From a virus, in IMG/VR virus record IMGVR_UViG_3300028388_003330, positions 1 to 64,000 of that record: a DNA stretch of 64,000 nucleotides, one strand, 5' to 3'. Positions 13,573-54,181 of the stretch are shown here, one piece after another. Under the pieces are notes generated by a model that worked only from the letters and a program-made list of their open reading frames with translations, ran no database searches and was not told the origin of the DNA. Numbering within the stretch: the first letter of the stretch is position 1; each line of letters starts with the position of its first letter. The translations under genes were made by a program, and so were the position numbers.

Positions 13573-14655
13573 TCAAGTCAGCCCTGACTGAAGTTTCAGC
13601 TTTGCCTCAAATTGCAATGTCAACGACTCTGCACTCTCAAATGTTTTGATTACCTCGTCTGGCATCGCTTCATTTGGGTCCATGCCTCTAGGAAGAATGG
13701 CAATGTTTACCTCCAATCCAATGCTCTTTAATAATTTTCCAGCTTTGATTGCGGCATTGATAGCGGAAGATTCCGAGTCCCACATCATGGTTACTTTTTC
13801 CAAGCCTAGAGATTTCAGCCTAATAAACTGACTAAATTGATCAGTTTTATCGGCGTGAGAAAGGTGCTTACCAAAGGTCGCTATCGGAACAACCTGCCGC
13901 AGAATAGGATTGGGTTTAAACGCCTGCCAAACGGCTATCGTGTCAAAGACTCCCTCGGTTACTACAACATGCTTAGCGCCCCTGGCGTTATGGGCGTTGT
14001 AAAGCAGCTTACTGGTTGAGGCGAACCCAGGTGGGAACAGATACTTACGGTCAGCATTCCCAGTTGTATCCCTGCCTTGAAAGGAAACCAAGTCGCCATC
14101 TAGGTCGTGAATCGGAATGATTACCCGCTCTGTATACCGCTGTACAAATTTCTTCCCTTTTATACGGTATGGAAAGACGCCAGATTTTGAAAAGCGTAAG
14201 GCAAAATGTTTAGCGGCTTCTGAAGTGATGCCCCGAACTTCCAAGTACGCCAAGTTCCTACCCTTATATGGAATTGGCACCGATTCTGGAAGCTGCAACG
14301 ACGGCACACTTTCCTGAACTGGTTCCGCCTTGATCTTTTTCGGAAGCCAGCCAATCTCAGCCACAATCCCCTTCAGATGATCCACCACCTCCCTGTTGGA
14401 ACCACCCAGTTCTGCTTTGATGAATGACCACTTATTGAAGTTTTCACCCTCAGGGTGGTCGCCTGCGAAACAGTTACCCAACCCTGTTTCTGCGTTGAGG
14501 TAAACCTTCCATTTGTTACTACCACATACAGGGCAATCGCGTACGTTAATCTGGGTTCCTCTGGAACCGTGAGTTATCCGATAATCAATACCCTGCATAT
14601 CTAGCCATGACTCCATGTCGATGGCCTCCAATATATCAGTAATATCGTTCATCAT
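13573..14655 (-). CDS. DNA primase (Zn finger + TOPRIM)
   Basis: CPVC...NCF zinc finger; RVIIPI...FQGR; VTEGVFD; MWDSE; DPNE. Confidence 0.9.
   Translation of the reverse strand: MMNDITDILEAIDMESWLDMQGIDYRITHGSRGTQINVRDCPVCGSNKWKVYLNAETGLGNCFAGDHPEGENFNKWSFIKAELGGSNREVVDHLKGIVAEIGWLPKKIKAEPVQESVPSLQLPESVPIPYKGRNLAYLEVRGITSEAAKHFALRFSKSGVFPYRIKGKKFVQRYTERVIIPIHDLDGDLVSFQGRDTTGNADRKYLFPPGFASTSKLLYNAHNARGAKHVVVTEGVFDTIAVWQAFKPNPILRQVVPIATFGKHLSHADKTDQFSQFIRLKSLGLEKVTMMWDSESSAINAAIKAGKLLKSIGLEVNIAILPRGMDPNEAMPDEVIKTFESAESLTLQFEAKLKLQSGLT
13574..13591. promoter_or_regulatory. Operator-like palindrome (CAAGTCA-GCCC-TGACTGA) at the primase 3' end, upstream of the WGR gene
   Basis: Consensus match. 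Confidence 0.55.
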
Positions 14656-16043
14656 TCCCTCTTGAGAACTTTCGTAACAAATTTCATTTTGGCGAGGTCT
14701 TGCTTGACGTAGAGCATGAACCCGCTGGCCTGATTTCGCGAAGCGGCGAAGTACAACCTTGCCTCGTCCTTCATCGCTTCGTCTTCAGATTTGTTAATCG
14801 AAATAACCAAGTCGGCAATACGGATTTTATTGAAATCCTCGGCAACGTGTTCGGCCTTGGCGACGGACGCTTTGAACCCATCGCGGTTGGTCTGAGTTGC
14901 CGAAAGAATGGCGACGTTCTCCTGCTGTGCAATGGCCCTTACATCAACCCACACGCTTTTCGAATTCTCAATGGCGTCGTTCGTTCGATAGCTGGGGGCC
15001 ATAATGTCCAGATAATCGATTACGATAAGCTCAAACAACAGGCTCTTTGCCTTATAGTGTTCGATCAAGCGCCGCAAATCAGTCGGCGTCATGGTTCCAG
15101 ACGGGTACTCATGGATCTTGAACGCGCCAACCTTCTCCGTCTCCCTGATATGTTCCACAGCGGTTTTAACCGCATGAGGCGACACCTTCAGATCGTTCAT
15201 CGTAATGTCTGCGAGATTCGCATCCGCTCTGGTGGCCGCGATTTCCTTCGAAACCTCCAAGGTGACATAGAGAACGTTGTAACCAGCTAACGACGCGGAA
15301 AGTGCAGAATTTATTAAAGCGGTGGTTTTTCCAGTTTTGGCACCGCCCATATAAATACTGAGTTCTGACTTTCCCCACCCTCCGTGATAGAGGTTGTCAT
15401 CGATCTGAGGAATGCCGGTCGTTACCGAATCAATCTTGGAACCGGAGAGTGATTCCAGCCTTGTTGCCGTCCTGCTTTCGATCTCATCGTAGAAATCATA
15501 AGTTGGCGATTGCTGCGCACCAACCTGCATGGCTTCCTTAACCACCTTTTCGATGTTTTCGAAATCCTTTCTGCCAAGGTACTCGACAGATTTCAGAATT
15601 GCCTTTTCAAGAGCCTGATGCTGTGCAAAGGCCGCAACCTCATCGATAACGTAATCCCGATCTGAGATGTCCTCGACGCTAAGGCGCTTCCAAGCGGCGA
15701 GAATTTCGGGTTTTAAATCCTCTCTGATAACCTTCCTTTTGATACCCTCCTTCAGCAGTTTAAGTAAAATGGAATTCGCCGGAATACGGCGATACTTGTT
15801 GAAGTATTTCAACGTCAGCGAAACCAAGACGGCTTCACCTGAGTGTTCAAAATACTCAGGTTGAATCAAACCCTCTGAACGCTCATTGAAAACCGGGTCG
15901 CGAAGCACCAGCGCAGCGATCTTGGTTTGAAAGCTGGAGTCGAAATCATACCGCCGAGTTTTCTCGGTCTTGAGTTCCTCCTGTGCGCCCCCGGTGAAAG
16001 ACCTGCCAATATCTTCCGCAAGGGATTCTTCTGTCACGCCCAC
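14652..16043 (-). CDS. Replicative DnaB/gp41-like helicase
   Basis: GGAKTGKT Walker A, YVTLE, IVIDYLD, SATQTNR, AEDFNK. Confidence 0.92.
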   Translation of the reverse strand: MGVTEESLAEDIGRSFTGGAQEELKTEKTRRYDFDSSFQTKIAALVLRDPVFNERSEGLIQPEYFEHSGEAVLVSLTLKYFNKYRRIPANSILLKLLKEGIKRKVIREDLKPEILAAWKRLSVEDISDRDYVIDEVAAFAQHQALEKAILKSVEYLGRKDFENIEKVVKEAMQVGAQQSPTYDFYDEIESRTATRLESLSGSKIDSVTTGIPQIDDNLYHGGWGKSELSIYMGGAKTGKTTALINSALSASLAGYNVLYVTLEVSKEIAATRADANLADITMNDLKVSPHAVKTAVEHIRETEKVGAFKIHEYPSGTMTPTDLRRLIEHYKAKSLLFELIVIDYLDIMAPSYRTNDAIENSKSVWVDVRAIAQQENVAILSATQTNRDGFKASVAKAEHVAEDFNKIRIADLVISINKSEDEAMKDEARLYFAASRNQASGFMLYVKQDLAKMKFVTKVLKRE

Positions 16044-16297
16044 TATTCAACCTCCAACGATTTGATAGCGTGTTTGAACACCAATACCTTTCGGTCGTCA
16101 TCATCCTTCTTGTATTTGAGGGTGACCGTGTATTTGTCGAACTCAATCAAGATGACTTGGTAGTAAACAAAACCTTCGATTGTCTGCACCACAAGGCTTT
16201 TGCCCAAGCACTCACGCAAGAAATTTTCATGATTCCTTACACCAGAAGCGGCCTTCGGTCGGTTCTTCAACCTAATGGTTTCTCGCTTTTTTTCCAC
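16043..16297 (-). CDS. hfq: Hfq-like Sm-fold RNA-binding protein
   Basis: HENFL...IEFDKYTVTL...LVFKHAIKS aligns with Hfq QDPFL...ESFDQFVILL...MVYKHAIST; AGGAGG RBS. Confidence 0.75.
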   Translation of the reverse strand: MEKKRETIRLKNRPKAASGVRNHENFLRECLGKSLVVQTIEGFVYYQVILIEFDKYTVTLKYKKDDDDRKVLVFKHAIKSLEVE

Positions 16298-16305
16298 AAT
16301 ACCTC

Positions 16306-17046
16306 CTACGGTTTGCTAAGTGACTTGGCTGTGTTAACCAAGTCTTGACCAAAGAATTTAATTGCCAGTGGCTCCAGAAGAACCCGAGCCTCATACAGAA
16401 CATGGCAAAGCACATAGCGCTTCTCTCGCCGCTTCGATATCACGGACAACAGATAGCGCTGAAAACCCTTCTGCTCGGGTCGACCTTGGTAGTTTTCAGC
16501 CAGATAGAAGGGGTCGTTCGGAAGCACCAAGTCATACGTCAGACGTTCAGCCCAAGCCGTAATGACAGGCTCCCTCACCTTCTCGGAATACATCTGCGAA
16601 GGTCTTGGGCATCTGGCCCAGCAGGTTTCTTCCGCGAATCGAATAATGGTTTTGCAGTAAAAGTCGTAAGGGACGCCAAGCTCGTCTGCAGATTGACGCC
16701 CTTTCCAGTAGGCGGTGTAGTCGCGAGACTTGCCCTCAAAAATATTCTCCGTGTAACCCTTAACGGGTTTCATGTACTGGGAACGTTCAAGGTCAAGTCG
16801 AATTCTGTGGAAAAGCTGGTACGCCAGCAGATATTCATGGGCGTACAGTAGGGTGGCCTTGGTTGGATGAAGCCTGCGATAGTCAAACCACTTGGTTTGG
16901 AACAGCGGAGCTTCTTTCCCGAGGAAATGACGCCGCTCAATGTTCTGCAGGGCAAGAATCTCACACTCTTCTTGGGTTAATTGATCCCCGAAGAAGGGTC
17001 CAGTAACAGACCGTGAGTCGTCCAGCGTTGGCAAAAACGCGGGCAT
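16306..17046 (-). CDS. Conserved phage hypothetical protein (replication region)
   Basis: TKWFDYRRLHP..AT, WKGRQSAD.LGVPYDFY, PRPSQ motifs; good RBS. Confidence 0.75.
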   Translation of the reverse strand: MPAFLPTLDDSRSVTGPFFGDQLTQEECEILALQNIERRHFLGKEAPLFQTKWFDYRRLHPTKATLLYAHEYLLAYQLFHRIRLDLERSQYMKPVKGYTENIFEGKSRDYTAYWKGRQSADELGVPYDFYCKTIIRFAEETCWARCPRPSQMYSEKVREPVITAWAERLTYDLVLPNDPFYLAENYQGRPEQKGFQRYLLSVISKRREKRYVLCHVLYEARVLLEPLAIKFFGQDLVNTAKSLSKP

Positions 17047-17085
17047 TTCCGTCTTCCTCTCCTGTGTCTATACCAGTAAGAGTAT

Positions 17086-17103
17086 TCAGTAAGTGCTTAG
17101 TTA
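17086..17103. promoter_or_regulatory. Operator-like palindrome (TCAGTAA-GTGC-TTAGTTA) upstream of the replication operon
   Basis: Consensus match. Confidence 0.6.
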
Positions 17104-17146
17104 TTTCAAGAGAGCAGCACTTATGCCCGTGTTTCTGCCGTCTGGA

Positions 17147-17902
17147 TCAGTCTCGGTAAGCTAGGAGAATTTCGCGGGCAAGCCCAGAACGGACCACGTC
17201 ATCGACATGAAACTCGACCACGGAGACGTAACCGGAGTTTCTGAGCCTGCAGACAGCGTCCTCAAGGCCAGACCTTCCTTCGATGTCGCGCTGCGAAGGG
17301 TCGCCATTGACCACCACCTTGGCATTCTTACCGATGCGAGTGAGAAACATTTTCATCTGCATCGGAGTGCTGTTCTGCGCCTCGTCCAAAATAACCCAAG
17401 AATTATCGAAGGTTCTGCCTCGCATGTAAGCCAAAGGAACGCATTCGATTTTCTTGTTCTTAAGCATGTACTCTATGGTGCCGGGATTCATTCGTTCATT
17501 AAGAACATCACGGAACGGTGCGATATAAGGCTCAAACTTTTCATCAATATCACCGGGAAGGAACCCTAGCGAATCACCAGTTTCAACTGTTGGACGAGTA
17601 AGAATGATGCGGTCAACTTCTTTACTCAGCAAAGCGTCTGCGGCCATTGCGGCGCAGACATATGTTTTCCCTGTTCCTGCTGGACCCAAGCCAAACGTCA
17701 GTTTGCTATTTTGAATGGCAATAATGTAATGCCCTTGAGCTTCAGTTTGTGCTTCTAACGGTTTAACTCTAGACGGTATATTTTCCATCCCCGATACGCT
17801 AGCTAGCCTTAGTCTGTTACTGTTCAAGCGATCCCTTTTCTCTAGTTTACGAAGTCGTCGGCGTTCGGCTTTTGTCAGGTAACTACTATTTGCTGAAGGC
17901 AT
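17147..17902 (-). CDS. phoH: PhoH-family ATPase
   Basis: GPAGTGKT, LTRP.VE.G..LGFLPG, PLAYMRGRTF, DEAQN, KMFLTRIG, GDPSQ.D. Confidence 0.95.
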   Translation of the reverse strand: MPSANSSYLTKAERRRLRKLEKRDRLNSNRLRLASVSGMENIPSRVKPLEAQTEAQGHYIIAIQNSKLTFGLGPAGTGKTYVCAAMAADALLSKEVDRIILTRPTVETGDSLGFLPGDIDEKFEPYIAPFRDVLNERMNPGTIEYMLKNKKIECVPLAYMRGRTFDNSWVILDEAQNSTPMQMKMFLTRIGKNAKVVVNGDPSQRDIEGRSGLEDAVCRLRNSGYVSVVEFHVDDVVRSGLAREILLAYRD

Positions 17903-17943
17903 ATATTTCCCCTGGTGGAAGAAACAATTAGCCCCTCTACTGT

Positions 17944-18240
17944 TTAACCAAGAGCTTGCTTTACGTTAACCGTAATCGTTGTACCTCTCAGTTTTTTCAC
18001 CACGCCTTCGAGTGTCACTACCTGTAACTCATGCTCACCGACGATGGAGAAATCGCCCTGCTCTACAGCGTATGAAACAATCCCTTTTGCTGGATCGGTA
18101 ATGCTGACCGCAGAATCTTTTGTAACAATTTCCCGGTTGGGCTTTTTAATAATAACCTGCGCATCCGTAGCGCTGGTAAGATCAACATCGGTTTCGAAGT
18201 TGATAAGAACGCCGTAAGTGTCGGTGTAAATATCAATCAT
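17944..18240 (-). CDS. BppU-N-like Ig-fold virion protein (paralog of 32588-32890)
   Basis: DLTSAT...KKP...D...G.VSY...DF...G...LQV pattern; ATGA overlap with the upstream gene. Confidence 0.7.
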   Translation of the reverse strand: MIDIYTDTYGVLINFETDVDLTSATDAQVIIKKPNREIVTKDSAVSITDPAKGIVSYAVEQGDFSIVGEHELQVVTLEGVVKKLRGTTITVNVKQALG

Positions 18241-21200
18241 TTGTGTCTCCAATACCTTTGGCGCTTCAACTTCAGGTTGATCTGATCTTTGAGGTCTATT
18301 TTAACTTGAGCGTGAATCGGCCACCAAGTTGAAGTTGCCCAAATACCCTTAATTACTTGACCTTCAGCATCAAAATTCGAATCTGCGGTAATTGACGCCG
18401 TCGCATTGGAAAGCTTGTAACGGTTTGCTGTAAGACTACCATCCGCTTCTATCAATGCGGTGCTGGGCTTGATCTTATACCGCTCAACGGTTAAGCCGCC
18501 TTCTGCATTGATGTATAGGGTAATAAGCCCTTTCGCTACGCTCGAAACCGAGCTTTCACCCTCAGAAGATGCTTGCCTTACATAAATCTTATAGTGCGTG
18601 CTACTTTGAGAACCTTCACCATTAAAGATGATGGTGCTAACACCATGAATCTTGGTGAATTCACTACTAACAACCGCACTGGCTGTAATCGAAGCAAGCG
18701 CCTGCTTAAGCTTGTAAACCTGCGAATTGAAACTCGCCGTACTGGTAATCGACGCCGTTTTCGGCTTGATTTTGTACCTTATAGAGCTGACAGATGCGCT
18801 TGCCGAAGAGCTTGAATCGCGAACGCGAATCACCGTCCGCGTTGTAGAAACCCCGCCCTGCGCAAGAATGTTGACCGTTCCAGAGCTGGAAATTTCAGTA
18901 TAAGAACTGTCAACCGACGCTTGTGCAGCGATGCTGACCGTTCTGGTAATGAACTTCTCGTAACTGGAATCAACCGTTGCGCTTGCAGCGATAGCCGCTG
19001 TGCGTACTCGAAAGATATTCGGAGTGGTTGCAACAACGCCTGTACCAGCAATGCCGGAGGCCGCAGGCTTGATGACAAAGCGATTTGCAGAAACCGCACC
19101 GGCCGCAGCAAAGCTCGCTGTTCCTTCTCCGGACTTGTTTGCAGCGGCAGTAACGCTAGAAGACGCTGTAACGCTCGCTGAGCGCACCTTGATAACGTGC
19201 GTACTCGCGTCGTTAGTGCTAACAGAAGCGCTGGCAGAAACGCTTACAGAGCGTCCCTTAACAACGAAGCGGGCTGCAGTAACGCTGGCTGTAGCGGCGA
19301 AGGAAATCTGCCCAGCAAGCGGAATAACTTCACCCGAGATACTGACTGTATCCGGGCCGTCTTCAGCGGCAAGATCGCCTTGAACCAGTACCGATCCATC
19401 GACACTGGCAGAGTCTTGACCCGACTCCCTGACGTTGATGGAACCAAGTATTCCATTTCCACCGTTCAGGGCTACTAAGTCTGAACCAACCTCTTGGACA
19501 GCAAGGTCACCCTGTATAAGAACAGAGCCGTCAACACTGACCGTGTCAGAGGTCGCTTCTTGGGCGGCAATGTCGCCCTGAACCAGTACCACTCCATCGA
19601 TTGTCGCCGTATCAGAGCCAACCTCTTGAGCGACCAAATCACCGGAGACAATCAAAGAGGCGTCGATTGTCGCTGTATCGGAGCCAACCTCTTGGGCAGC
19701 GAGGTCACCCTGAATCAGTACCGACGCATCGACAGAGACAGAGTCCGCACCGGCCTCTTGGGCAGCAAGATCGCCTTGGATAATTGACGCTGCCGAAATG
19801 GTAACGTCGTCAGATCCAACCTCTTGGACAGCAAGGTCACCCTGAACCAGTACCGATCCATCCAAGGAAACAGTGTCGGAACCCGTCTCTTGGGCGGCAA
19901 GACTACCGGCTATCAGTACATCGCCATCAAACGATACGGTATCAGATCCGGTTTCCTGTACAGCTAGATCGCCTTGAACAACAGCGATGACGTTACCGCT
20001 AAGCGATACAACGTCAGAGCCAACTTCTTGGGCGGCAAGATCGCCGCTGACGAGCACGTCACCATCAATAGAAACGGTGTCAGCGCCAACCTCTTGAGCA
20101 GAGAGATCACCCTGAACGATGAGAGAGGCATCGATTGCTGCAGTGTCAGCACCAGACTCTTGAACGGAGAGGTCGCCAGAGACAATCAGAGAGACGTCAA
20201 TCGATACACTGTCAGCACCAGACTCTTGTGCGGTCAGAGTGCCTGTAATTGCGCCTGAAGTTGTTGTGAATTCAGCGGTTTCGACGCTATTGGTATAAGC
20301 GCCATCGGTGTTCTGCCAAACAAACGCTGCCTTATAGCTAGTGTCCGCTTGAAGCGCGTTGGCATCAAACGCAACCGCGTCTGTAAAGGTCGCCTGTTGG
20401 CTATCACTGAACGCTGCAGCGCTGCCATTAACATCCAAACCAGCAACGATTTGATCGTCAGACGGCTTTGCTAAGGCGCTGTCATAGACAACCACATACA
20501 GAATGCCGGGTACTGCCGTACTAAAGTGCGCAGTATCGGAGCCGGTTTCCTGAACCGCCAGATCACCCGATATTTCAACGCTTCCTGTAAGGCTTGCAAC
20601 GTCCGCAGTTGCCTCTTGGGCGGAAACATCACCTTGTATAAGAACATCACCAGCAAGCGATGCGATGTCCTGCGCCGATTCCTGTACAGAAATCGAACCC
20701 GAAATAATGACATCGCCTGTAATAGCGATGGTGTCACTGCCGGATTCCTGTATTGAAATCGTTCCGCCAGCATATGTTCTGAAAGCGACGGTTTCAGAAA
20801 CACTGGAATCATTGCTTCCGTCAGACCAGACGGCAGCGGCTTTGTATTCGACGCCCTGTGTTAGAGCGGAAGGGTCAAAACTGTAGGTGTTATCGACATC
20901 CGCCGTTTTATCAAATGCGTAAACAGCAGCGCCATCTAATGCATCTGTCCCCGCTTTAATTTGTGCAGCAGTTGGCGTTGCTTTCTCACTGGTATAAACA
21001 ACGCAATAAATTCGATTGGTGGAGGGTTGTTCAACGGAACCGGTAATGTTGCAGGAATCAGAACCCGATTCTTGTGCAGCCAAATCCCCTTGAACGAATA
21101 CATCGCCGTCAAATGCAGCGGAATCTGCGCCGGTCTCTTGTACAGAGAGGTTGCCAGTAATATCTCCATCAGAAACGCTTCCACTAAACGAAAGCGAATC

Positions 21201-22037
21201 TGAACCTGTTTCTTGAGCGCCTAAATCTCCTGTTACCAGTACATCGCCGCTAAAAGATAAGGAGTCTGAACTAGCCTCTTGCGCTGATAAACCACCGCTT
21301 ACTAGCACATCACCATCGAAAGAGACGGAATCTGAACCTGTTTCTTGGACAGAAACATCGCCAGATATAAGTACATCACCATCGAAAGCCGCTGTATCTG
21401 CACCGCTTTCCTGCGCTGACAAGCTACCGGTAATAGGCGCATCAGTGACGGCACCATCGATTGAAACACTGTCAGAACCCGTTTCCTGTGCTGACAGATC
21501 TCCGGTGATTGTTGCAGCACCCGCCGTATAGACGCCAGTAACTTCAGCAGCCGTAATGCGTTTTTCGAGAGTGTCGCCGCCTTTGACCTTAGTGACGACC
21601 ATCGTAATATTGACGATGGCACCATCCCAATCAGCTTTGGTCGCGCTGGTATCAACGCCAGTGAGCGTTATCGCCCCAGAGTTTGTTGGCGTGGTCGTCG
21701 TGATATTAGTGGCAATGGAAACAGCATTGGTTAGCGGCGTCGTACGATCAGATTTAAAAATCTGAACCGTAATGCTGTCCCAGGTGTTTACCTGCGTGCC
21801 AGTTTGCCAGTGATAGCGCAGGTTGATTGACACCGAATCCATGGTGCCAAAATCGGCAGGCGTATCACCCAGCGCGAAGAAGCCAGATATCGCATTGTTG
21901 GCGTTATCAGTAGTATAGAAGTAGGTTGAATCGTTACTGGATGCAATAGCCTCCAGTACCGGCTCGGTACCCGTGATGGAGCACGCGGTCGAATTGACCG
22001 TGTCAAATGTACCCAGTAATAAAGTAAGATCAGCCAC
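18237..22037 (-). CDS. Repeat-rich fibre scaffold protein (~25 x 22-aa GDLxxQExGxD repeats, 2 Fn3-like domains, ~16 x 20-aa A/S-rich repeats)
   Basis: Repeats counted directly in the translation. Confidence 0.8.
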   Translation of the reverse strand: MADLTLLLGTFDTVNSTACSITGTEPVLEAIASSNDSTYFYTTDNANNAISGFFALGDTPADFGTMDSVSINLRYHWQTGTQVNTWDSITVQIFKSDRTTPLTNAVSIATNITTTTPTNSGAITLTGVDTSATKADWDGAIVNITMVVTKVKGGDTLEKRITAAEVTGVYTAGAATITGDLSAQETGSDSVSIDGAVTDAPITGSLSAQESGADTAAFDGDVLISGDVSVQETGSDSVSFDGDVLVSGGLSAQEASSDSLSFSGDVLVTGDLGAQETGSDSLSFSGSVSDGDITGNLSVQETGADSAAFDGDVFVQGDLAAQESGSDSCNITGSVEQPSTNRIYCVVYTSEKATPTAAQIKAGTDALDGAAVYAFDKTADVDNTYSFDPSALTQGVEYKAAAVWSDGSNDSSVSETVAFRTYAGGTISIQESGSDTIAITGDVIISGSISVQESAQDIASLAGDVLIQGDVSAQEATADVASLTGSVEISGDLAVQETGSDTAHFSTAVPGILYVVVYDSALAKPSDDQIVAGLDVNGSAAAFSDSQQATFTDAVAFDANALQADTSYKAAFVWQNTDGAYTNSVETAEFTTTSGAITGTLTAQESGADSVSIDVSLIVSGDLSVQESGADTAAIDASLIVQGDLSAQEVGADTVSIDGDVLVSGDLAAQEVGSDVVSLSGNVIAVVQGDLAVQETGSDTVSFDGDVLIAGSLAAQETGSDTVSLDGSVLVQGDLAVQEVGSDDVTISAASIIQGDLAAQEAGADSVSVDASVLIQGDLAAQEVGSDTATIDASLIVSGDLVAQEVGSDTATIDGVVLVQGDIAAQEATSDTVSVDGSVLIQGDLAVQEVGSDLVALNGGNGILGSINVRESGQDSASVDGSVLVQGDLAAEDGPDTVSISGEVIPLAGQISFAATASVTAARFVVKGRSVSVSASASVSTNDASTHVIKVRSASVTASSSVTAAANKSGEGTASFAAAGAVSANRFVIKPAASGIAGTGVVATTPNIFRVRTAAIAASATVDSSYEKFITRTVSIAAQASVDSSYTEISSSGTVNILAQGGVSTTRTVIRVRDSSSSASASVSSIRYKIKPKTASITSTASFNSQVYKLKQALASITASAVVSSEFTKIHGVSTIIFNGEGSQSSTHYKIYVRQASSEGESSVSSVAKGLITLYINAEGGLTVERYKIKPSTALIEADGSLTANRYKLSNATASITADSNFDAEGQVIKGIWATSTWWPIHAQVKIDLKDQINLKLKRQRYWRHK

Positions 22038-22290
22038 CGCTTACCCCACAGGTTGCACAGGTCATGCCAGCCGGAGGCCAATCCCCGCAGTTATTAACAA
22101 AACTAGGCATCAAAGGCTTGACGTTAGTTATGTAACGCGGGTCAGTATATACCGCTTTCCATGTGCCGTTCTCACGAAATAAACCGCAAGCCCAACGTCG
22201 ATTGGGTACGGTATTTTCTTCTAGGTATTGACAAACACCTCCACCGATATAGCAGCAGTGATCATCCGAATTGCCGGTGCAGATACTCAT
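22030..22290 (-). CDS. Small Cys-rich (8 Cys) putative metal-binding protein
   Basis: MSICTG...HCCY...C.YL...AC...CGDWP...CATC; TGATG overlap. Confidence 0.7.
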   Translation of the reverse strand: MSICTGNSDDHCCYIGGGVCQYLEENTVPNRRWACGLFRENGTWKAVYTDPRYITNVKPLMPSFVNNCGDWPPAGMTCATCGVSGG

Positions 22291-24305
22291 CAGAATGTCA
22301 CATCCCAACTAAGTGTTGCACTTGTTAATCCAGCAATTGTAACCGTTGGATTGTCTACTGTTGGCGTAGTGCTGACGTAGTAATCGAAACCGATGTCCCA
22401 CGCGCCAGCAGCGGGCCATTCGTCGCCGTCGATGTCTGCGGTGAAGCTACTGTAGAGGTTAGCGCCCGCACCGATCAGCGACGATCCCGCTGCTAGGTGA
22501 TAGTCATCGTTCGCAGCGTCGGCAAAGTCAGTGCTGACGATGTTGGTCGTCAGGGGGTTGGTGCCGGGAGGCGTGTAAGTGCTGGCAACATCTGACGCAT
22601 TATTGCTGCTGTTTGACGTGTCTATTGCGCCTTCTGTGTCGTACCCAACAGTTGCCCCATAGGCGACACAGTTTTTCAGAACGATAGGGCCAGTCGTTAA
22701 ACACTCTAAAGCCGTAGTGTTTCCACCAGACACGAAAACACAGTTGTAATAATCCTGGTTTGTAAAATTTCTAACATAAACAGCCGGCGAATCCGACGCT
22801 TTATTTATAAACGCACAGTTTTTCGCAACGAAATAATCGCCAGTTGAAGCGGTATTAAAATTAAGCGCAGTGTTGATGCGCGATGAACTATCGTTTGCCA
22901 CTCTACAAAACACGGCATCAAACGAAACATAGTTTGCCTCAACATAAATACTGCTGTTTGCCGAGGAGGTTGCGCCGATCTCTCCGCAAAAGCCCTCAAC
23001 GACTGTATAATTTTGGGACACTTTCAACGGGTATCCATAGTTCTGATCGGTATAAACGTAAAACCCAGTAGCGGGTGTGCCATTGTGACGCTCTGCGCTT
23101 GGCACATACACCTTCACATAACGCTCGGAGTCCGTAGTCCATCCAGCTATAGTGGGGACATCGTTCAACCCACTCGGCCAGTCGTCGTAACACTCGGCGA
23201 CTGCAATCTCGTCGGCAGCGACGAGGTCCACCTGTTCTCCAGACTCCCATGCTGACAGCGTCGTGTAGTCGCCACTGGACGAACGGATAGTCTTGGTAAC
23301 GGCGATAGTCCCCCTGTGGGCACCTATGGGCCAGTGCTCTACACCATCACTGTCAGCGATAGGAACGCCTGTGATGTCGTAAATGGTAGTGCCATCACCG
23401 AGGTCACCCCCGGCTTCAAATAGCTGACTGGTTGTTGGATCAAGTGGTAGGCGGTAATCGTCGTTCGCAGCGTCTCGGAAGTCAGCGGACGTGACGTTGG
23501 TCGTCAGGGGGTTGGTGCCGGGAGGCGTTACCGTTGCGCCGTCGCTAGCGGCGTTATTAAAAGTACCCGCAGTGTATATCGCGCTCGCGCCATAAGAAAA
23601 AGAGGTTCCGCAGTTATACGCCACACAGTTCGCCCACGACACTCCCTGGTTGATGTCGTTAGAACCAGTGGAAGCCATGTAAAAACCTATGTCTGTGCAA
23701 TCGACCGCGACACAGTTCTGTGCGATGTAGCCATAATAATTGGCGCGGGTCATAAACCCACGATAACCCATCCCGATGCAGTTTATGTAAATAGAACGCC
23801 TGTTTCTAAAGGCCGCGTAGGGTGTGCCGCCGTTAGAAGTGCCGTACCCAACGCAAGCAAAAGCGGTAAAATTATAAGTGCTGCTGTCGCAGTAAAAAGC
23901 GTCGCCATTTGCTGCTGTTTGCCACGCCTCGACGTACTCGATTAAAGTGTCGTTCCCAGTAACAACTTCAACTACCTCGCCGTAGTTGTCTGAGTAATAC
24001 ATCCAAAACCCAGCTTTCGAGACGCCGTTATGCCGATGTCCTTCTGCGACCGTTACTTTCACATACCGCGTCGCATCCGTTGTCCACCCGTCGATTGTTA
24101 GTTTGTCGTTCAACCCACTCGGCCAGTCGTCATAGCACTCGGCTACGGCCATCTCATCAGCGGTAACAAGGTCTTTCTGCTCGCCTGCCTCCCATGCCGA
24201 GAGGGTGGTGTAATATCCATCGACGCCATACAGCGCCTCCATAGCGGACTGATTTGCCGTCCATGCGGCTGCGGTACGGATGGCATGTTTAACCTCGGTT
24301 GCCAT
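22290..24305 (-). CDS. Tandem-duplicated beta-helix (pectin-lyase-like) virion/receptor-binding protein
   Basis: Two copies of YTTLSAWE...AECYDDWPSGLND...RHNG...NNASD...PPGTNPLTTN...AANDDY.L. Confidence 0.75.
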   Translation of the reverse strand: MATEVKHAIRTAAAWTANQSAMEALYGVDGYYTTLSAWEAGEQKDLVTADEMAVAECYDDWPSGLNDKLTIDGWTTDATRYVKVTVAEGHRHNGVSKAGFWMYYSDNYGEVVEVVTGNDTLIEYVEAWQTAANGDAFYCDSSTYNFTAFACVGYGTSNGGTPYAAFRNRRSIYINCIGMGYRGFMTRANYYGYIAQNCVAVDCTDIGFYMASTGSNDINQGVSWANCVAYNCGTSFSYGASAIYTAGTFNNAASDGATVTPPGTNPLTTNVTSADFRDAANDDYRLPLDPTTSQLFEAGGDLGDGTTIYDITGVPIADSDGVEHWPIGAHRGTIAVTKTIRSSSGDYTTLSAWESGEQVDLVAADEIAVAECYDDWPSGLNDVPTIAGWTTDSERYVKVYVPSAERHNGTPATGFYVYTDQNYGYPLKVSQNYTVVEGFCGEIGATSSANSSIYVEANYVSFDAVFCRVANDSSSRINTALNFNTASTGDYFVAKNCAFINKASDSPAVYVRNFTNQDYYNCVFVSGGNTTALECLTTGPIVLKNCVAYGATVGYDTEGAIDTSNSSNNASDVASTYTPPGTNPLTTNIVSTDFADAANDDYHLAAGSSLIGAGANLYSSFTADIDGDEWPAAGAWDIGFDYYVSTTPTVDNPTVTIAGLTSATLSWDVTF

Positions 24306-25099
24306 TAGCTCGCCTTGTCGAGTATCCGGCTAGCGAGTTGTGCAGGCGTCACTTCGATGACCCCGCCCATGCCAAGCGCCGTATCAACGTCAGCGTCGGA
24401 CACCCGCCAACGACGGCGGCGCACCGTCTTGCGCATGGCATCCTTCAGCGCATCGACAAAGTGCTGGCGCACGTCGGTACGAGTGAACTCTGCGGTGATG
24501 ACATCGCCCGTCACATCAGTGATCGTCGCGTTGGCCTCCTGAATCTGGGCCTGCGCATTCTGCACCGTCACGCTAGACGCCGACACATCGACCGTGGCAA
24601 CGTGAACGCCGGTACCCTGGTCGTAGGACTGCTCGGCGATGGTAATGCCCAGCGTCGTGGGGTCTTGCCCCCAGAACCCCTCCGACTTGTAGGCGTCCTG
24701 AACGGTGATGTCGAACCGCACCTCGTTGGTCGTCGTGCTGACAACCGACGCACCCCACTTAGTGAGCCAGTTTTCCACCTGCTCGCGGGTGATGCCGTAC
24801 TCATTTGCCGCACCGGGGGTTTCGGTCCATATCCGTACCCGGACACCATCGACAGCGGCATCAGTAGCGACGATCTCGTAACCAAGTTCACGCCGCCAAT
24901 CATCGCGCCGGTCTTCTACCTGCTCGACCGTGACGCCAGGAACCTTGACGATGACGAACGTAGGCGGGCCTTCTTTACCGCCCCACTCATGCCCATCCGG
25001 CATGACGACCACGATGTCACCCTTTTTGTAGCATCCCTGCTCGTCGGTATCCGGGTCCGGGTGGGTGGCGTCAATTGCTTTTATAAGGAATTCGGCCAT
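24305..25099 (-). CDS. Hypothetical fibre-associated protein
   Basis: YKKGDIVVVMPDGHEWG motif; coupled to the beta-helix gene. Confidence 0.7.
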   Translation of the reverse strand: MAEFLIKAIDATHPDPDTDEQGCYKKGDIVVVMPDGHEWGGKEGPPTFVIVKVPGVTVEQVEDRRDDWRRELGYEIVATDAAVDGVRVRIWTETPGAANEYGITREQVENWLTKWGASVVSTTTNEVRFDITVQDAYKSEGFWGQDPTTLGITIAEQSYDQGTGVHVATVDVSASSVTVQNAQAQIQEANATITDVTGDVITAEFTRTDVRQHFVDALKDAMRKTVRRRRWRVSDADVDTALGMGGVIEVTPAQLASRILDKAS

Positions 25100-25115
25100 T
25101 TTGAACCTCAAATTA

Positions 25116-25448
25116 CTAGAATGTAATTGTACACCCTACAGTCGCACTAGTTGGCCCTGTCACTGTAAACACAGGCAAACTTAATACCGGGTTGCTTACA
25201 TCTGAGACAAACGTTTGGTGAACAGCAGTGCTGTAATCGGTCCCGTCGTACCAGACGGCGCTGACGCGGTAGCTGACGCCAGCCGTCAGGCCAGAGGCGC
25301 TGAAGTTCTCGGTGCCCGATACGTCGGCCAGTTGGTTGCTGGCGTAGGTCGCGGCGTTACCGTCGGCACCCTGTCCTGCGACGATCTGCGCTGCGGTCGC
25401 CGTGCCTTGGCTGGATGGGTAGACCGAGAGGTAAAGCGTATCGGCCAT
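25116..25448 (-). CDS. Small Fn3-like protein (apparently circularly permuted)
   Basis: TLYLSVY...TAAQIVAG...GLTAGVSY is homologous to two domains of 18237-22037. Confidence 0.75.
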   Translation of the reverse strand: MADTLYLSVYPSSQGTATAAQIVAGQGADGNAATYASNQLADVSGTENFSASGLTAGVSYRVSAVWYDGTDYSTAVHQTFVSDVSNPVLSLPVFTVTGPTSATVGCTITF

Positions 25449-26317
25449 TAGAACGTCACACCCACGGCAATATCAGCCGTGGTCTGCCCGATGTTAGTGA
25501 TGACCGGCGTGCCGAGGGTTGGGGCGTTACTGGTCGCGCCGGGGATGCTGAACAGGTAGGGTGCGTCGTTGGCTGGCTTCAGCCACGAATAGAGGTCTCT
25601 TGATAACTGCTTGGCGACGGCAGAAGATGCCCCACGATGGTCAAGCATGAGAAACGATGCTATTTCACCATTAAACGCGGTTATAGGAGGCTCGTTTATT
25701 GCTGTCGCACCAATTTGTGCGAAAGCATCTAAATCCTGTACCTCCACGGAATGTGCGGTGTTATGAACTTCAACACCACCGACAAATGCAACAAGACAAT
25801 TATTTAAACGACCAGCGACTAAATGCTGCCACTCACCGTCACTAAAACCCGTAAATGTATAGTTTATCCCCGTGCTGTTGTGCGTAAGCGATACTCTGAT
25901 ATCGTTCGACCAGTTCACCCTAGATATAACAAAAGAGTCTCCACTGTTGCTATTTATAGCAAAAATTATTCCGTTTCCGTCTCCGCCGGAGTGATTTGAT
26001 TTGAATTCAACCGAAACTAAAAAATCGCCAGTAATGCTCGCCGCATAGTCTATCGGTATAGAATTATCAGAATCGTCCGCTACATCCCACGCAAACCCGC
26101 CGCTTGATGAAGTCCACGATCCAGTGGGACTTGCATACGTTTCGTTAACTTGCGCTGTGGCTAAGTCAAAGAAATCTCTTTGAAAGAGCATCGCGACCTT
26201 TACACCGGGCACGTTTAACGCAACAGGCCCAATAGGCTTCCTTCCAGGCACCAACAAATTCGGCTCGCGCAACGCATACGCCAGTGCGGTCTGGCTGGGG
26301 ACGACTAGCTGGGCCAT
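25448..26317 (-). CDS. LamG/concanavalin-A-like virion protein
   Basis: DGEWQHLVAGR...FVGGVEV...IGA...FNGEIA pattern. Confidence 0.75.
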   Translation of the reverse strand: MAQLVVPSQTALAYALREPNLLVPGRKPIGPVALNVPGVKVAMLFQRDFFDLATAQVNETYASPTGSWTSSSGGFAWDVADDSDNSIPIDYAASITGDFLVSVEFKSNHSGGDGNGIIFAINSNSGDSFVISRVNWSNDIRVSLTHNSTGINYTFTGFSDGEWQHLVAGRLNNCLVAFVGGVEVHNTAHSVEVQDLDAFAQIGATAINEPPITAFNGEIASFLMLDHRGASSAVAKQLSRDLYSWLKPANDAPYLFSIPGATSNAPTLGTPVITNIGQTTADIAVGVTF

Positions 26318-34768: not shown

Positions 34769-35156
34769 AGGACAGCTCCTTGGATTTAGCAGGGAAAGTG
34801 TCGATGGAGACGGTGTAGTCGCCGGGAAGCTCGGCAGTTATTTCCAGAACCCCATCGTCCACCGTAACTCGTTCAAGCACGCCCACTGCAGATAGGGTGA
34901 CAACGGCACCAACAGGCACGCCAGACAGCGTGGCAACGTCTACACCGTCAGCGACGATGGACGTCTTATCCAGTTGAGCGGGGTTGTCGGGTCGCAGGAC
35001 AGGCTCGCCGTCAGGAAAATATGTGGACGCTGCGTCGAACTCTCCTTCATAGTGTCCCTCGTCGGCATTTACGTTATTCGCCAACCCGCTTTCAACGCCG
35101 ATGTGTATTTTGACGACGCGCCCGGTATCTGTTTTGTAGATGGTGTAAACGCTCAC
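34755..35156 (-). CDS. Tail-fibre assembly-like protein
   Basis: YTIYK..TGRV...EG.FD...Y...GEPVLRP; directly after the tail-tip gene. Confidence 0.65.
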   Translation of the reverse strand: MSVYTIYKTDTGRVVKIHIGVESGLANNVNADEGHYEGEFDAASTYFPDGEPVLRPDNPAQLDKTSIVADGVDVATLSGVPVGAVVTLSAVGVLERVTVDDGVLEITAELPGDYTVSIDTFPAKSKELSFVAT

Positions 35157-38100
35157 TTCTTCACCTCAAGCGCAGAGATAATTAGGTCGTCCACTTTTAC
35201 TTCTATATCGTTTCGACCGCTTTCATAGGTGTTAGAAACATACAAATCTACTGAGTACCTACGAGTCCCAGCAGGCGGAACGTCCATGTACACAAACGTG
35301 ATAAAGTCGCCGCCCCCTTCGCGATACCTCGCTATTTGAGTGCCACCATATATGTGTACATCATCTCTTTTAAGGTCCATGTACAACGAATCGTACCCAT
35401 CGCCGTTGGCGCTGGATATAACCATCCGCATACTAACTGTTATCAGCGCTTCGTTACCAGTAGCCGTATACGTTAAGTATCCGTACTCCGTCCAAGTGTT
35501 TGCAACAGTAGTAAGAGTTGTGAATTTATTCGTCGTTGGTATGGTGACCGCCCTGTCAGCTATCTTTAACGTAGTGACAGCAAGTTCATCTATCTGAAGC
35601 GTACCAACCGCAAGCTCAGCGATATGCCCTCTTTCCACAATCTCCAGGGAGTCGGCCTTCAGAGAAGAGGCTTCGATATTCCCCCTGGCGTAGATGTCGT
35701 TAAACTGGGCGTTGCCGTTTTTGTTTATCCACCAGCCAGACGTTACGTTGACGAAGTTGGTAGACTGTATCGTGTTGCCGATATAGGCATCACCTATGGC
35801 GCCAGCGGCGATAACAGTAGAAACGTTACTCTGATTAATCTCGTCGATGAACGCGAAAGTACCACTCTCTGAGCCAGCAGACTGCAGGCAGGCCCTGGCC
35901 ATGTTCCAGGCTTGGTCCCTGTTCCAGAACTCGCGGTAGTACCGCGCCTCGGAGAAGATGCCCCCGTAGTACACACCGGAACCGAGAGAAGACGTATCCC
36001 AGTCGCCTTCGCTGTTTCCGCCAATAGCCACTGCACGGGCTGTCGTTGTGAAGCTGGACGTCGTGCCGAGCGTCGAGGTCTGGTATGACCCGTCGGCGTG
36101 GAACATGTAGTAGTGGAGTTCGTTCGCGTCCTTGTCGAACGTGACGATCAGGCAGTGCCACTCGTCCTGGTATATCGCGTCAGTAAGCGTGCTGGGGTTG
36201 CCGAATGCAAGGCTGACATTCATCTTGCCGTTGCCGTCGTACGTGGATTCGGAGGTAGAAACCCCCCAGCCATCTGATAAGTCCCGAGTAACAATCCGCG
36301 CCCCTGAAGGGGGAGGCGTGGACGGGGCTTTAAAGACAAACACCCACGACTGCTGCGGGTAGGTCGCGTACGCCGTGTCCACATTCTTCGCGAGCTTGAC
36401 CCCTGCGCTGTCTATCTGGACGCCTTTGCCAAGGTTGGCCTGGACTACACTTACCGAGTTCGCGCCGTTGCTCAGAGTCACATAGCCAAGTTTGGCGGTA
36501 GCGTCCTTGAACTCTCCGCTGTCGTCATCGCTGTAATCTGTTGCAAACGACCAACGCCCAGCAAGTTTTGTCGGGTTTGGTAGGCTGTCTGGATAGCCGG
36601 TGAAGTTATCCCAGAAGTCAGCACCAACAGTTGCACCGTCTTCGATGTTGTTTAGCTTAGTGCCCTCGGCGGTGCTGATTTCCGACAGCGAGGTGGGAGT
36701 GCCGGAGAGATCGTCGTACTCGGTTGTGCCGCCACCTGGGATCGCATAGGTCGATGGGTTGGACAATGCCCCGACCCGCTCCTCGAACATGATGCCGTCG
36801 AACCACACGTCGCAACCCGCACCGCCTTCGTTGTCTACGCGAAGCAGAAGGCGGGTGGAGGTGGTATCCGCCGAAAGGTCTATCGTGGCCGTGATGCGCT
36901 TCCAATCACCGGGTGTAGCGGCGCAGGTGAAGTTGTAGCCGAGATAGGTATCGTTTAACTGCCGCCGGGTGTATAGCTGCACTGCCGCGTTGGCGGTGTT
37001 GCTGCGGACGTAGCAACTGAACAGCCACACTTTACCCGGCTCTATCGGGATGTTGTAGTTAGTTGCGCCATCACTAAGAAAGACGTACCCATTATCGCCG
37101 GTCGCCGCTATCTTTAGGCTGTGCCCACCGAAATAGCTGACAGTGGCGTCTAGGCTTACGGTAGCCGTCGACGCCTTAGCCAGCGTCGGGAAAATATTCT
37201 CGAACACCGAGTACCGATAGTTGGCAATGTTGACGCCACTACCTGCCGTGTTGTTGTAGGTACTGTCGGCGTCAAGCTCGCCCACGTAGTCGAGGTCGTA
37301 GATCGAACTGTTGGTCTTCGCCAGGGCGCTAACAAGCGGGGCACCCTTGTAGATGCTGAACGGTATGTCGAGCCACGCATCGGGGTCGTCATCAACCTCG
37401 CCAGCGTAGGCTTCAAAACCGTTGCCTTCCCCACAGCCTGGGATGCCGATGAGAACGTAAGCGCTGCGGTTCTTGAACAGATTGGTCGAGCCGTAGACCG
37501 CCTTTGATGCGCCGCAGCGGTACATCGCCGCGTCTAAGCCGTTAGCCAGACGGTTGTTCTCTGGTTCGTCGAAGCCGTAAACGACCACGATCTTGGTGTT
37601 GTCAAGAGCGTTGAGCGCAGCGGCCATCGTTGTGGCGTTAGCGACGCTACCGTAAACATCGTAGGTCTGACCAGACTCTCTGAGTCCGGTTGTGCGGTTG
37701 AACACAACCATGGTATAGGAACGCCCGATGCCCTGGATCTGGGTGTCGTCTTCGTCGTAAAGGCCATGCCCATGGGCGGAATAAGTGGCTTGGTTACCCT
37801 TAGTTACCACCCGGTACATCAGCGGACGACCTGACAAGTTGGCAGTCCAGTCAGCGCCAACGGTCGCTTCAGGCTGTACGCGGCTGACCTCGACGTGGGA
37901 CACCTTGACCGTGCCGGTACACGCGCCAACGATGATCTGCACGCTGACCTGACGGCAGTCAGGCTGCAGCGCGGCAGCAGAACCCTCCAGCCAGTACCAC
38001 TGACCTTTGGTTACACCACCATCGTCGCTTACTAGATCTGGCCACGAGCCAACGGCGGTGCTTGCGCCAGCGCTGGTTTTCTCATTCAGTTCGATCCGGA

Positions 38101-53497: not shown

Positions 53498-53501
53498 TGT
53501 C

Positions 53502-53825
53502 TTACCCCGTTTTCGCCATTCTCTTCAGTTCTGACCAACCCTCTGTGTCGAGCTTTTCTTCCTGTTTCACCACCGACGCAAGCTCAACCTCCAGAGTCTT
53601 CCGGAATTCTTTGGCGGCTTCAGGGTGATTAGAGTGAACGTTTACAGACAGCGACCGTATGTCAGATTCCGCCATGACACGCGTAATTTGCCCATTAAGG
53701 CTCCAAAACGCTTTGACGGGCATGTTCATGACATCGGCGTAATTGGCATGGAAGAAGTGCATGTACCGCGCCAGCAGAAAGGAGAAATCGACTTCTTCGA
53801 CGGCGCTGTCATTTTTCAGTTTCCC
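53502..53825 (-). CDS. Tail assembly chaperone gpGT extension (-1 frameshift product)
   Basis: The -1 frame from G GGA AAC reads KLKNDSAVEEVDFSFLLARY into MHFFHANY. Confidence 0.8.
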   Translation of the reverse strand, partial: GKLKNDSAVEEVDFSFLLARYMHFFHANYADVMNMPVKAFWSLNGQITRVMAESDIRSLSVNVHSNHPEAAKEFRKTLEVELASVVKQEEKLDTEGWSELKRMAKTG

Positions 53826-54124: not shown

Positions 54125-54147
54125 TGCTTTTACTCCGTTAGAGTTAC

Positions 54148-54169
54148 AGCCCCTCCTAATGGAGGGGCT
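54148..54169 (-). terminator. Hairpin after the major tail gene
   Basis: AGCCCCTCC-TAAT-GGAGGGGCT. Confidence 0.55.
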
Positions 54170-54181
54170 TGGTTAGGGCGA

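What the first reader, a model, noticed from the sequence alone, without database searches (positions are those of the whole stretch)
20260..26317. Split Fn3 'plug-and-socket' system: three proteins share a C-terminal tag that looks like the strands missing from scaffold domains
Seen: three different genes end in one motif. The beta-helix protein ends TPTVDNPTVTIAGLTSATLSWDVTF, the 110-aa protein NPVLSLPVFTVTGPTSATVGCTITF, and the LamG protein APTLGTPVITNIGQTTADIAVGVTF. This resembles the first two strands (A-B) of an Fn3 domain. The 1266-aa scaffold carries two Fn3-like domains (~20775-21017, ~20260-20510) that begin at the following strand (IY/LYxxVY...xxQIxAG...LxxxxxY) and lack that segment. 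The 110-aa protein has the same truncated domain followed by the tag. Inference: donor-strand complementation, in which tagged adhesins dock into scaffold sockets and the 110-aa socket+tag protein can polymerise as an extender, like pilus subunits. This would be a swappable receptor-display system with possible protein-engineering use.
Basis: partly seen in the sequence, partly recalled or inferred. Interest (0 to 1): 0.78.

Follow-up and report, generated by a model that had tools for sequence, protein, structure and literature searches.

The report
Split Fn3 domain joins phage proteins
Three proteins of an uncultured tailed phage end in the first two strands of a fibronectin-type domain and a neighbouring small protein begins exactly where those strands stop, so the proteins most likely clip together by completing one fold; this joint has one solved phage precedent but seems far more widespread and modular than recognised.

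Summary
In this 80-kb siphovirus-like IMG/VR record, exactly three ORFs end in a ~25-residue hairpin ('tag') and exactly three Fn3-like domains start at the next strand ('socket').

The domain belongs to a large family with no Pfam model (1173 profile hits). Most members are complete in one chain, and there the tag sequence is strands A-B.

The LamG protein's tag and the start of the 110-aa protein cut the domain in its B-C loop at a gene boundary. The same tag-stop-Met-socket arrangement recurs in four other viral or metagenomic loci, with different junction frames, so recoding is unlikely.

A complex model places the tag's B strand against socket strand E (score 0.66, best control 0.22). Trans-completion is therefore supported for LamG to the 110-aa protein.

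Docking of the other two tags into the 1266-aa protein is only inferred. Its sockets lack a canonical A-B segment of their own, but each is preceded by a tag-like 22-aa repeat. Polymerisation of the 110-aa protein is untested.

Closest precedent: in phage Tuc2009 the BppU C-terminal hairpin completes a BppA sandwich. This scan noted split-Fn3 joints before on other phage DNA. Verdict: new variant of a known kind.

The parts
25448..26317 (-). LamG-like protein (P0004, 289 aa) that ends in a tag.
   Evidence: ORF. Laminin_G_3 scores 27.1 bits against a cut-off of 27.6. Homologous LamG-tag proteins occur in L004, L015 and L016.
25451..25525 (-). Tag 1: the last 25 residues of P0004 (A-B hairpin, ends VTF).
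   Evidence: +14.2 bits when joined to the P0003 socket. In the complex model residues 280-287 pair antiparallel with socket residues 45-51.
25116..25448 (-). 110-aa adaptor (P0003): socket (residues 1-85) followed by a tag. Its ATG overlaps the LamG stop by one base (TAATG).
   Evidence: No other in-frame start exists upstream. AlphaFold2 gives the socket pLDDT 88-98 and the tag about 53.
25194..25448 (-). Socket of P0003: Fn3 strands C, C', E, F, G plus an inserted helix.
   Evidence: for secondary structure. Structural alignment covers residues about 27-97 of single Fn3 domains only. The family profile hits fibronectin at E 6.2e-5.
25119..25193 (-). Tag 2: the last 25 residues of P0003 (ends ITF).
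   Evidence: Adds 14-17.5 bits when joined to any of the three sockets.
24305..25111 (-). 268-aa protein between the adaptor and the beta-helix gene. It has no tag, no socket and no family match.
22290..24305 (-). Double beta-helix-type protein (P0002, 671 aa) that ends in a tag. It is an internal duplication.
   Evidence: The two halves are 40% identical, E 3e-55. A few homologues carry PF12708 or PF13229. P0002 itself has no Pfam hit.
22293..22367 (-). Tag 3: the last 25 residues of P0002 (ends SWDVTF, with the Trp that is usual in Fn3 strand B by my own recollection).
   Evidence: Adds 6-9 bits when joined to a socket.
22030..22290 (-). 86-aa Cys-rich ORF. Its start overlaps the beta-helix stop (TGATGA) and its end overlaps the start of the 1266-aa gene.
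   Evidence: No family match.
18237..22037 (-). 1266-aa repeat protein (P0001): an N-terminal domain, about 25 tag-like 22-aa repeats, two sockets, and a C-terminal region with a second repeat.
   Evidence: No Pfam or PHROG family.
20769..21011 (-). Socket in P0001, residues 343-423.
   Evidence: Matches P0003 at E 1.5e-15. pLDDT 95 or more. Its own upstream 40 residues add only 3.0 bits.
20262..20501 (-). Socket in P0001, residues 513-592.
   Evidence: Its own upstream 40 residues change the score by -2.4 bits.
19299..20261 (-). Longest array of 22-aa repeats (residues 593-913). Shorter arrays lie at 21012-21512 and 20502-20768.
   Evidence: The units align with the tags and add 1-9 bits as A-B donors at the best junction.

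Best explanation
An Fn3-superfamily domain is divided at its B-C loop between separately translated virion proteins.

The C-terminal ~25 residues of the LamG-like protein, of the 110-aa protein and of the double beta-helix protein are the A-B hairpin. The 110-aa protein starts at strand C and has only strands C-G plus a short helix. That leaves one sheet of the sandwich with a single strand.

The hairpin of one protein inserts into the open domain of the next, with B antiparallel to E and A beside G. This completes the sandwich and ties the two proteins together without a covalent link.

How far each step is supported:
- Supported by comparison and modelling: the LamG tag fills the socket of the 110-aa protein.
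- Inferred: the 110-aa protein then acts as an adaptor. Its own tag and the beta-helix tag fill the two Fn3 domains of the 1266-aa repeat protein, which lack a canonical A-B segment of their own. The result would be a branched surface fibre carrying a lectin-like and an enzyme-like module.
- Not determined: whether the assembly sits on the tail or on the capsid.
For: (1) The family is large and usually whole. A profile search found 1173 proteins. In about 300 of 348 internal copies, the copy's own upstream 36 residues add 12-36 bits to a full-domain profile. Their consensus (..TAP.LS....G.TTA..V.TDE.NGTLY) matches the tags.

(2) The socket is Fn3 without strands A and B. The family profile matches fibronectin Fn3 at E 6.2e-5. 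VIA-align gives Fn3 domains Z 5.0-5.9, rmsd 2.0-2.9 A, 62-69 residues aligned, covering only residues about 27-97 of single Fn3 domains.

(3) The LamG tag plus the 110-aa protein rebuilds the domain without indels, adding 14.2 bits.

(4) The cut is conserved. A tag-ending gene lies directly before a socket gene in L004 (twice, and it includes a 117-aa socket+tag adaptor), L014, L015 and L016. Gains are 6-19 bits in L004 and L015. Four of five proteins that start directly with MA.LY have such a neighbour.

(5) Junction frames differ: -1, +1, in frame, +2, and several stops.

(6) Tags and open sockets are equal in number: 3:3 in this record, 1:1 in a 93%-complete relative, 2:2 in L004.

(7) Complex model of socket residues 1-86 with LamG residues 245-289. 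Score 0.66, best of 3 controls 0.22. The mark was reached by 58 of 80 solved complexes and 2 of 110 mismatched pairs; these counts hold only roughly because my own alignment was used. The runs agree in at least 95% of contacts, and the partner's pLDDT is at least 66. Contacts 47:285, 49:283 and 51:281 show an antiparallel B-E pairing.

(8) Solved precedent: the BppU C-terminal hairpin completes a BppA sheet in phage Tuc2009 (PMC4742702).
Against: The complex pass may reflect the model's memory of intact Fn3 domains, because the two chains are halves of a fold that is common in the PDB. It shows compatibility, not binding.

AlphaFold2 gives the socket alone high confidence, so a need for completion is argued from topology and was not measured.

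Many family members with a free socket have no tag gene next to them (L005, L007-L012). The socket may therefore also stand alone or use another partner.

Both sockets of the 1266-aa protein are preceded by a repeat unit that is among the more A-B-like units. For the first socket the spacing is nearly canonical, so completion in cis is possible, which would leave two tags without a known partner.

The record is estimated to be 73% complete, so the 3:3 count could change.
Confidence: 0.6

Rival explanations
1. The joint holds only for LamG to the 110-aa protein. The two Fn3 domains inside the 1266-aa protein are completed in cis by the 22-aa repeat unit just before them. The tags of the 110-aa and beta-helix proteins go elsewhere: head-to-tail chains of the 110-aa protein, the edge of the repeat array, or a socket protein encoded in the missing part of the genome.
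For: The pre-socket units (starting at residues 322 and 496) rank second and third of 25 units as A-B donors for two of the three sockets tested, and second and fourth for the third. Spacing before the first socket is within one residue of canonical. The relative P0023 has the same repeat-socket layout with canonical spacing. The record is 73% complete. The 110-aa tag joined to its own socket gives the largest gain, +17.5 bits.
Against: At native spacing the scaffold's own upstream residues add only +3.0 and -2.4 bits, against 12-36 bits for about 300 domains that are complete in cis. AlphaFold2 leaves these units at pLDDT below 55 next to sockets at 95 or more. Counts of tags and open sockets are equal here and in two other records.
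Confidence: 0.3
2. The tags are leftovers of recombination or gene fission at a domain boundary and have no docking role. The sockets are stable truncated domains.
For: The socket alone is modelled with high confidence. Many free sockets have no tag gene nearby. Homologues of the beta-helix module carry many other C-terminal ends.
Against: The tags are conserved as protein while their DNA has diverged. They always sit at the extreme C-terminus. They recur before socket genes in distant phages whose sockets are 24-51% identical. Without strands A and B, one sheet of the sandwich has a single strand (established Fn3 topology).
Confidence: 0.08
3. Frameshifting or stop-codon read-through fuses each pair of ORFs into one chain with a complete domain.
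For: The ORFs abut or overlap. One L004 junction is in frame.
Against: Junctions lie in the -1, +1, 0 and +2 frames, and in L014 there are four stops between the ORFs. I saw no slippery heptamer at the window junction. Each downstream ORF starts with Met-Ala exactly at the loop.
Confidence: 0.02

Closest known systems
BppU-BppA joint of the Lactococcus phage Tuc2009 baseplate (PDB 5e7t; PMC4742702)
   Same: A C-terminal extension of about 25 residues on one virion protein forms a beta-hairpin that completes a sheet of an incomplete Ig/Fn3-like sandwich in another virion protein, which also carries a carbohydrate-binding module. BppA appears as a weak hit of the socket profile (E 0.17).
   Different: In Tuc2009 the sandwich is at the C-terminus of the lectin-like protein and the hairpin is on the structural protein. 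Here the lectin-like protein carries the hairpin and the socket is N-terminal or internal. Here there are three tags, an adaptor with both parts, and a different and much larger domain family. Homology is not established.
Anastellin, a fragment of fibronectin's first Fn3 domain lacking strands A and B (PDB 5j6z)
   Same: An Fn3 without strands A and B that binds strands A-B of another Fn3 domain. The entry is among the structural matches of the socket (Z 5.0, rmsd 3.4 A, 65 residues aligned).
   Different: To my knowledge it is a laboratory-derived fragment of fibronectin that acts on fibronectin assembly, not a genetically encoded two-gene joint.
Donor-strand complementation in chaperone-usher pili and strand exchange in type V pili
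   Same: An incomplete Ig-like sandwich is completed by a strand from the neighbouring subunit. A subunit carrying both parts can chain.
   Different: By textbook knowledge, one strand (G or A1) is donated, by an N-terminal extension or after proteolysis, and the process depends on a chaperone and usher or on a protease. Here a two-strand C-terminal hairpin is donated. No such accessory genes were found.
Engineered split domains (Fn3 fragment complementation, SpyTag/SpyCatcher)
   Same: A sandwich domain cut in a loop reassembles from two fragments and is used as a protein connector (my own knowledge, not checked here).
   Different: These are man-made, and the Spy system is locked by an isopeptide bond. 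Nothing here points to a covalent lock.

Membership tests
Fibronectin type III superfamily (fold) | Sequence-profile similarity to known Fn3 domains | tested here: met
   The profile of the socket family hits fibronectin chains 3r8q_A and 1fnh_A at E 6.2e-5 over the E-F-G region.
Fibronectin type III superfamily (fold) | Structural superposition on Fn3 strands | tested here: inconclusive
   VIA-align gives Z 5.0-5.9, rmsd 2.0-2.9 A, 62-69 residues aligned. Nearly all top rows are Fn3, aligned over strands C-G only. Z below 8 can be a common arrangement. Foldseek gives E of 0.27 or more.
Fibronectin type III superfamily (fold) | Seven strands A-G in one chain | tested here: not met
   The 110-aa protein starts at strand C and no start codon lies upstream. 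Strands A-B are on other proteins.
Pfam fn3 (PF00041) or any other Pfam family for the socket | Match above the gathering score | tested here: not met
   No Pfam family at E up to 1 for P0003 or for the socket regions of P0001. None in eight relatives, apart from a Laminin_G_3 match to the separate LamG domain of P0025.
Tuc2009 BppU-BppA type hairpin joint | A C-terminal hairpin of one virion protein completes a sheet of a partner's sandwich | tested here: inconclusive
   Predicted only. Complex score 0.66 against a best control of 0.22, with B-E pairing. No experiment.
Tuc2009 BppU-BppA type hairpin joint | Homology to BppA domain 2 or to BppU | tested here: inconclusive
   5e7t_B at E 0.17. 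The 102-aa ORF at 17944-18252 matches BppU_N at 16.6 bits, below the cut-off of 23.1.
Chaperone-usher donor-strand system | A single G strand is missing, the donor is an N-terminal extension, and chaperone and usher genes are present | tested here: not met
   The missing part is the A-B hairpin and the donor is C-terminal. No chaperone or usher family was found among neighbours.
Laminin G / concanavalin-like lectin (P0004) | Pfam match above the cut-off | tested here: inconclusive
   PF13385 scores 27.1 bits against a cut-off of 27.6, E 5.4e-6.
Right-handed parallel beta-helix (P0002) | Pfam Beta_helix or pectate-lyase match | tested here: inconclusive
   None for P0002 and no PDB sequence match. 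A few of 118 homologues carry PF12708 or PF13229.

The most novel reading that the evidence does not exclude
The parts form a chainable, pilus-like building kit. The 110-aa socket+tag protein polymerises head to tail into a string of Fn3 beads, capped by the LamG protein and rooted in the 1266-aa protein. The 1266-aa protein's roughly 25 hairpin repeats are themselves serial docking sites for socket proteins. This would give a programmable, non-covalent fibre assembly system spread across many phage lineages.
Probability: 0.12. Interest if true: 0.85.

Novelty: new variant of a known kind. Interest (0 to 1): 0.62.

Why it matters
If the joint is real, phages have a compact, genetically portable way to hang different modules (lectin-like, enzyme-like) on a virion fibre. 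It needs about 25 residues on the cargo and about 85 residues on the carrier, and the parts appear in different combinations across lineages.

That would explain many unannotated phage ORFs that begin abruptly with MA.LY.V.Y or end in ..VTF. It would help predict which virion proteins bind each other. It would also offer a natural, small, orthogonal connector for protein engineering and for retargeting laboratory phages.

The finding further defines a large Fn3-like family with no Pfam model.

Tried and rejected
Searches that gave nothing:
- PHROGs and Pfam gave nothing for the five core proteins except a borderline LamG match.
- tblastn of P0003 against 50,697 phage records found no match. 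No phage record matches the replication-gene stretch (14652-18000) over more than 7% of its length.
- The word-based protein search found one relative of P0003 and two of the LamG protein.
- A scan of species genomes found nothing. Further viral scans added only L015-L017.

Ideas rejected or left unsupported:
- Extended synteny of the two genes upstream of the LamG gene with L004 is not significant (E 0.25 and 12).
- Recent DNA repeat or recombination cassette: rejected, because the tag DNA has diverged.
- Recoding: rejected on junction frames.
- Cis or trans filling of the scaffold sockets could not be settled.
- Tags on beta-helix homologues: only one of 118 (P0200) ends in a tag-like hairpin.
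- Foldseek found no match at E of 0.001 or below.
- Four literature searches found no description of this family or of a split Fn3 joint in phages beyond Tuc2009.


Full report
**Setting.** The window is the first 64 kb of an 80,202-base IMG/VR virus record estimated to be 73% complete. It encodes terminase, portal, scaffold, major head protein, a 1092-aa tape measure, minor tail proteins and a 4554-aa ORF, so it is a siphovirus-like phage. No phage record matches its replication-gene stretch (14652-18000) over more than 7% of the query.

The genes of the finding lie on the minus strand after the holin and peptidase genes and before phoH. In order they are: LamG-like protein, 110-aa protein, 268-aa protein, beta-helix protein, 86-aa Cys-rich ORF, 1266-aa repeat protein. 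They abut or overlap by one to a few bases.

**Observation.**
- In the whole record they are the only three tags and the only three sockets.
- The tags differ at the DNA level, so the likeness is kept by selection on the protein.
- The 110-aa ORF has no other in-frame start. Only eight codons separate its Met from the previous stop.

**What the domain is.** A profile of sockets plus tags found 1173 proteins at E of 0.001 or below in 1.84 billion representatives. No Pfam family covers them.
- In the 150 listed proteins I located 475 copies. Most sit in tandem arrays of up to 28 copies and are about 110-118 residues long.
- In those copies the socket is preceded by ..TAP.LS....G.TTA..V.TDE.NG, which is the tag sequence.
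- The family profile matches fibronectin Fn3 domains at E 6.2e-5.
- The AlphaFold2 model of the 110-aa protein has socket pLDDT 88-98 and five strands plus one helix. It superposes on Fn3 domains at Z 5.0-5.9, rmsd 2.0-2.9 A, over 62-69 residues.
- That superposition covers only residues about 27-97 of single Fn3 domains, which is strands C to G.
- So the socket is an Fn3 without strands A and B, and the tag is those two strands. By standard Fn3 topology (sheets ABE and C'CFG), a socket alone has a one-strand sheet.

**Is the split real and functional?** I built a profile from 166 domains that are complete in one chain.

| Sequence joined to a socket | Change in profile score |
|---|---|
| LamG or 110-aa tag | +14 to +17.5 bits |
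| Beta-helix tag | +6 to +9 bits |
| 185 ORF tails of the genome (the three tags included) | mean +0.2 to +1.1, sd about 2.3 |

The LamG tag and the start of the 110-aa protein rebuild the domain with the cut in the B-C loop.

The same cut at a gene boundary occurs elsewhere:
- L004, a Rubrivivax-associated contig: a LamG-like protein with a tag, then a 117-aa socket+tag protein, then a 380-aa protein that starts with a socket.
- L015, from a 55-kb phage that is 93% complete: LamG-tag, then one base, then a 454-aa protein starting MADLLY.
- L016: LamG-tag, then a second LamG paralogue fused straight to a socket with the hairpin absent.
- L014: a tag, then several stops, then a socket with a short MLLSLL leader.

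Gains of 6-19 bits were measured for the L004 and L015 junctions. The junction frames all differ, which argues against frameshifting or read-through.

Tags and open sockets are equal in number in three records: 3:3, 1:1 and 2:2.

**Modelled complex.** Socket residues 1-86 (with an alignment) were folded with LamG residues 245-289.
- Score 0.66, best of 3 controls 0.22. The mark was reached by 58 of 80 solved complexes and 2 of 110 mismatched pairs. These counts hold only roughly because my own alignment was used.
- The runs agree in at least 95% of contacts, and the partner's pLDDT is at least 66.
- The closest contacts (47:285, 49:283, 51:281) are an antiparallel pairing of tag strand B with socket strand E. 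Tag residues 268-271 touch strands F and G. That is the Fn3 arrangement.
- Intact Fn3 structures are abundant, so the pass may come from memory. It shows that the halves fit, not that they bind.

**Limits.**
- The two sockets in the 1266-aa protein are each preceded by a unit of its 22-aa repeat (QE.G.D..S..G.V.V.GDL.A, about 25 copies), which aligns with the tags.
- At native spacing these units add only +3.0 and -2.4 bits. That places both sockets in the minority class of 44 internal copies that gain less than 6 bits from their own upstream sequence. About 300 copies gain 12-36 bits.
- AlphaFold2 models both sockets at pLDDT 95 or more but leaves the repeats below 55.
- Against this, the two pre-socket units are among the most A-B-like of the 25 units, and spacing before the first socket is nearly canonical.
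- I therefore rate trans filling of the scaffold sockets as about even. Equal counts of tags and sockets favour it. The incomplete genome and the tag-like repeats count against it.
- Several family members with a free socket have no tag gene upstream, so the joint is not universal for the family.
- Chaining of the 110-aa protein is possible on sequence grounds (+17.5 bits for its own tag on its own socket) but is untested.

**Where on the virion?** This is unknown. In the 93%-complete relative the pair lies between the major head protein and the head-tail adaptor, a usual place for head decoration genes. In the window it lies at the end of the late region. Of 118 homologues of the beta-helix module, only one ends in a tag-like hairpin. 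The others carry different C-terminal ends. That fits a cargo module with exchangeable anchors.

**Comparison with what is known.**
- In phage Tuc2009 the last 25 residues of BppU form a hairpin that completes a sheet of the C-terminal sandwich of BppA, and the composite domain resembles a titin domain (PMC4742702). This is the same principle in a solved structure.
- PDB 5j6z shows anastellin, an Fn3 lacking strands A-B, bound to strands A-B of another Fn3.
- Pilus donor-strand systems work alike but donate one strand and need accessory machinery.
- Earlier notes of this scan describe split-Fn3 joints in other phages, one of them cut after strand B as here. I did not test those notes. One of them led me to the Tuc2009 paper, which I read.

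**Verdict.** The mechanism is supported for one joint and open for the other two. This is a new variant of a known kind: a new, large domain family, a tag on the cargo rather than on the carrier, an adaptor carrying both halves, and several tags in one phage.

Noticed in passing
window 19299-21512 (minus strand; P0001 residues 176-913): About 25 copies of a 22-residue unit (QE.G.D..S..G.V.V.GDL.A) that aligns with the tags. The same repeat flanks sockets in relatives P0023, P0054 and P0144 and in the L011 protein. What structure the array forms is unknown; AlphaFold2 gives it pLDDT below 55.
   Followed up: partly
window 18240-19298 (minus strand; P0001 residues 914-1266): A second, looser repeat of about 20-25 residues (RYKIKP.TA.I.A type) fills the C-terminal third of the 1266-aa protein.
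   Followed up: no
window 22030-22290 (minus strand): An 86-aa ORF with eight cysteines is wedged between the beta-helix and scaffold genes and overlaps both. It matches no family. It may be an assembly factor.
   Followed up: no
relatives P0054, P0068, P0112, P0123, P0124, P0130, P0133, P0150; loci L005, L008, L010, L014: Many socket proteins carry a short N-terminal leader MLL[TSL]LL before the socket. Many socket proteins (P0023, P0042, P0059, P0062, P0139) and beta-helix homologues (P0158, P0166, P0244) end in an acidic stretch followed by LLLLMAA or a close variant. These may be another pair of docking motifs.
   Followed up: no
beta-helix homologues P0157, P0193, P0200, P0222, P0245, P0255: Several homologues of P0002 end in ..T.T[ILY]H (for example TITIH, ITLH, VTYH). 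This may be a different C-terminal strand tag.
   Followed up: no
L016:874-2889: A LamG paralogue is fused directly to a socket with the 25-residue hairpin missing, next to a LamG paralogue that keeps the hairpin. This is a natural fused-versus-split comparison.
   Followed up: partly
G001 (L022-L024), 53004-55089: In this 93%-complete phage the LamG-tag gene and the socket gene lie between the major head protein and head-tail adaptor genes. The contig end cuts the LamG gene.
   Followed up: partly
window 22290-24305: The beta-helix protein is an internal tandem duplication: the two halves are 40% identical (E 3e-55).
   Followed up: yes
window 35153-48817 (minus strand): A single ORF of 4554 codons follows the minor tail genes. 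It was not examined.
   Followed up: no
window 17944-18252 (minus strand): A 102-aa ORF after the scaffold gene has a sub-threshold match to BppU_N (16.6 bits, cut-off 23.1). This is of interest given the Tuc2009 precedent.
   Followed up: no
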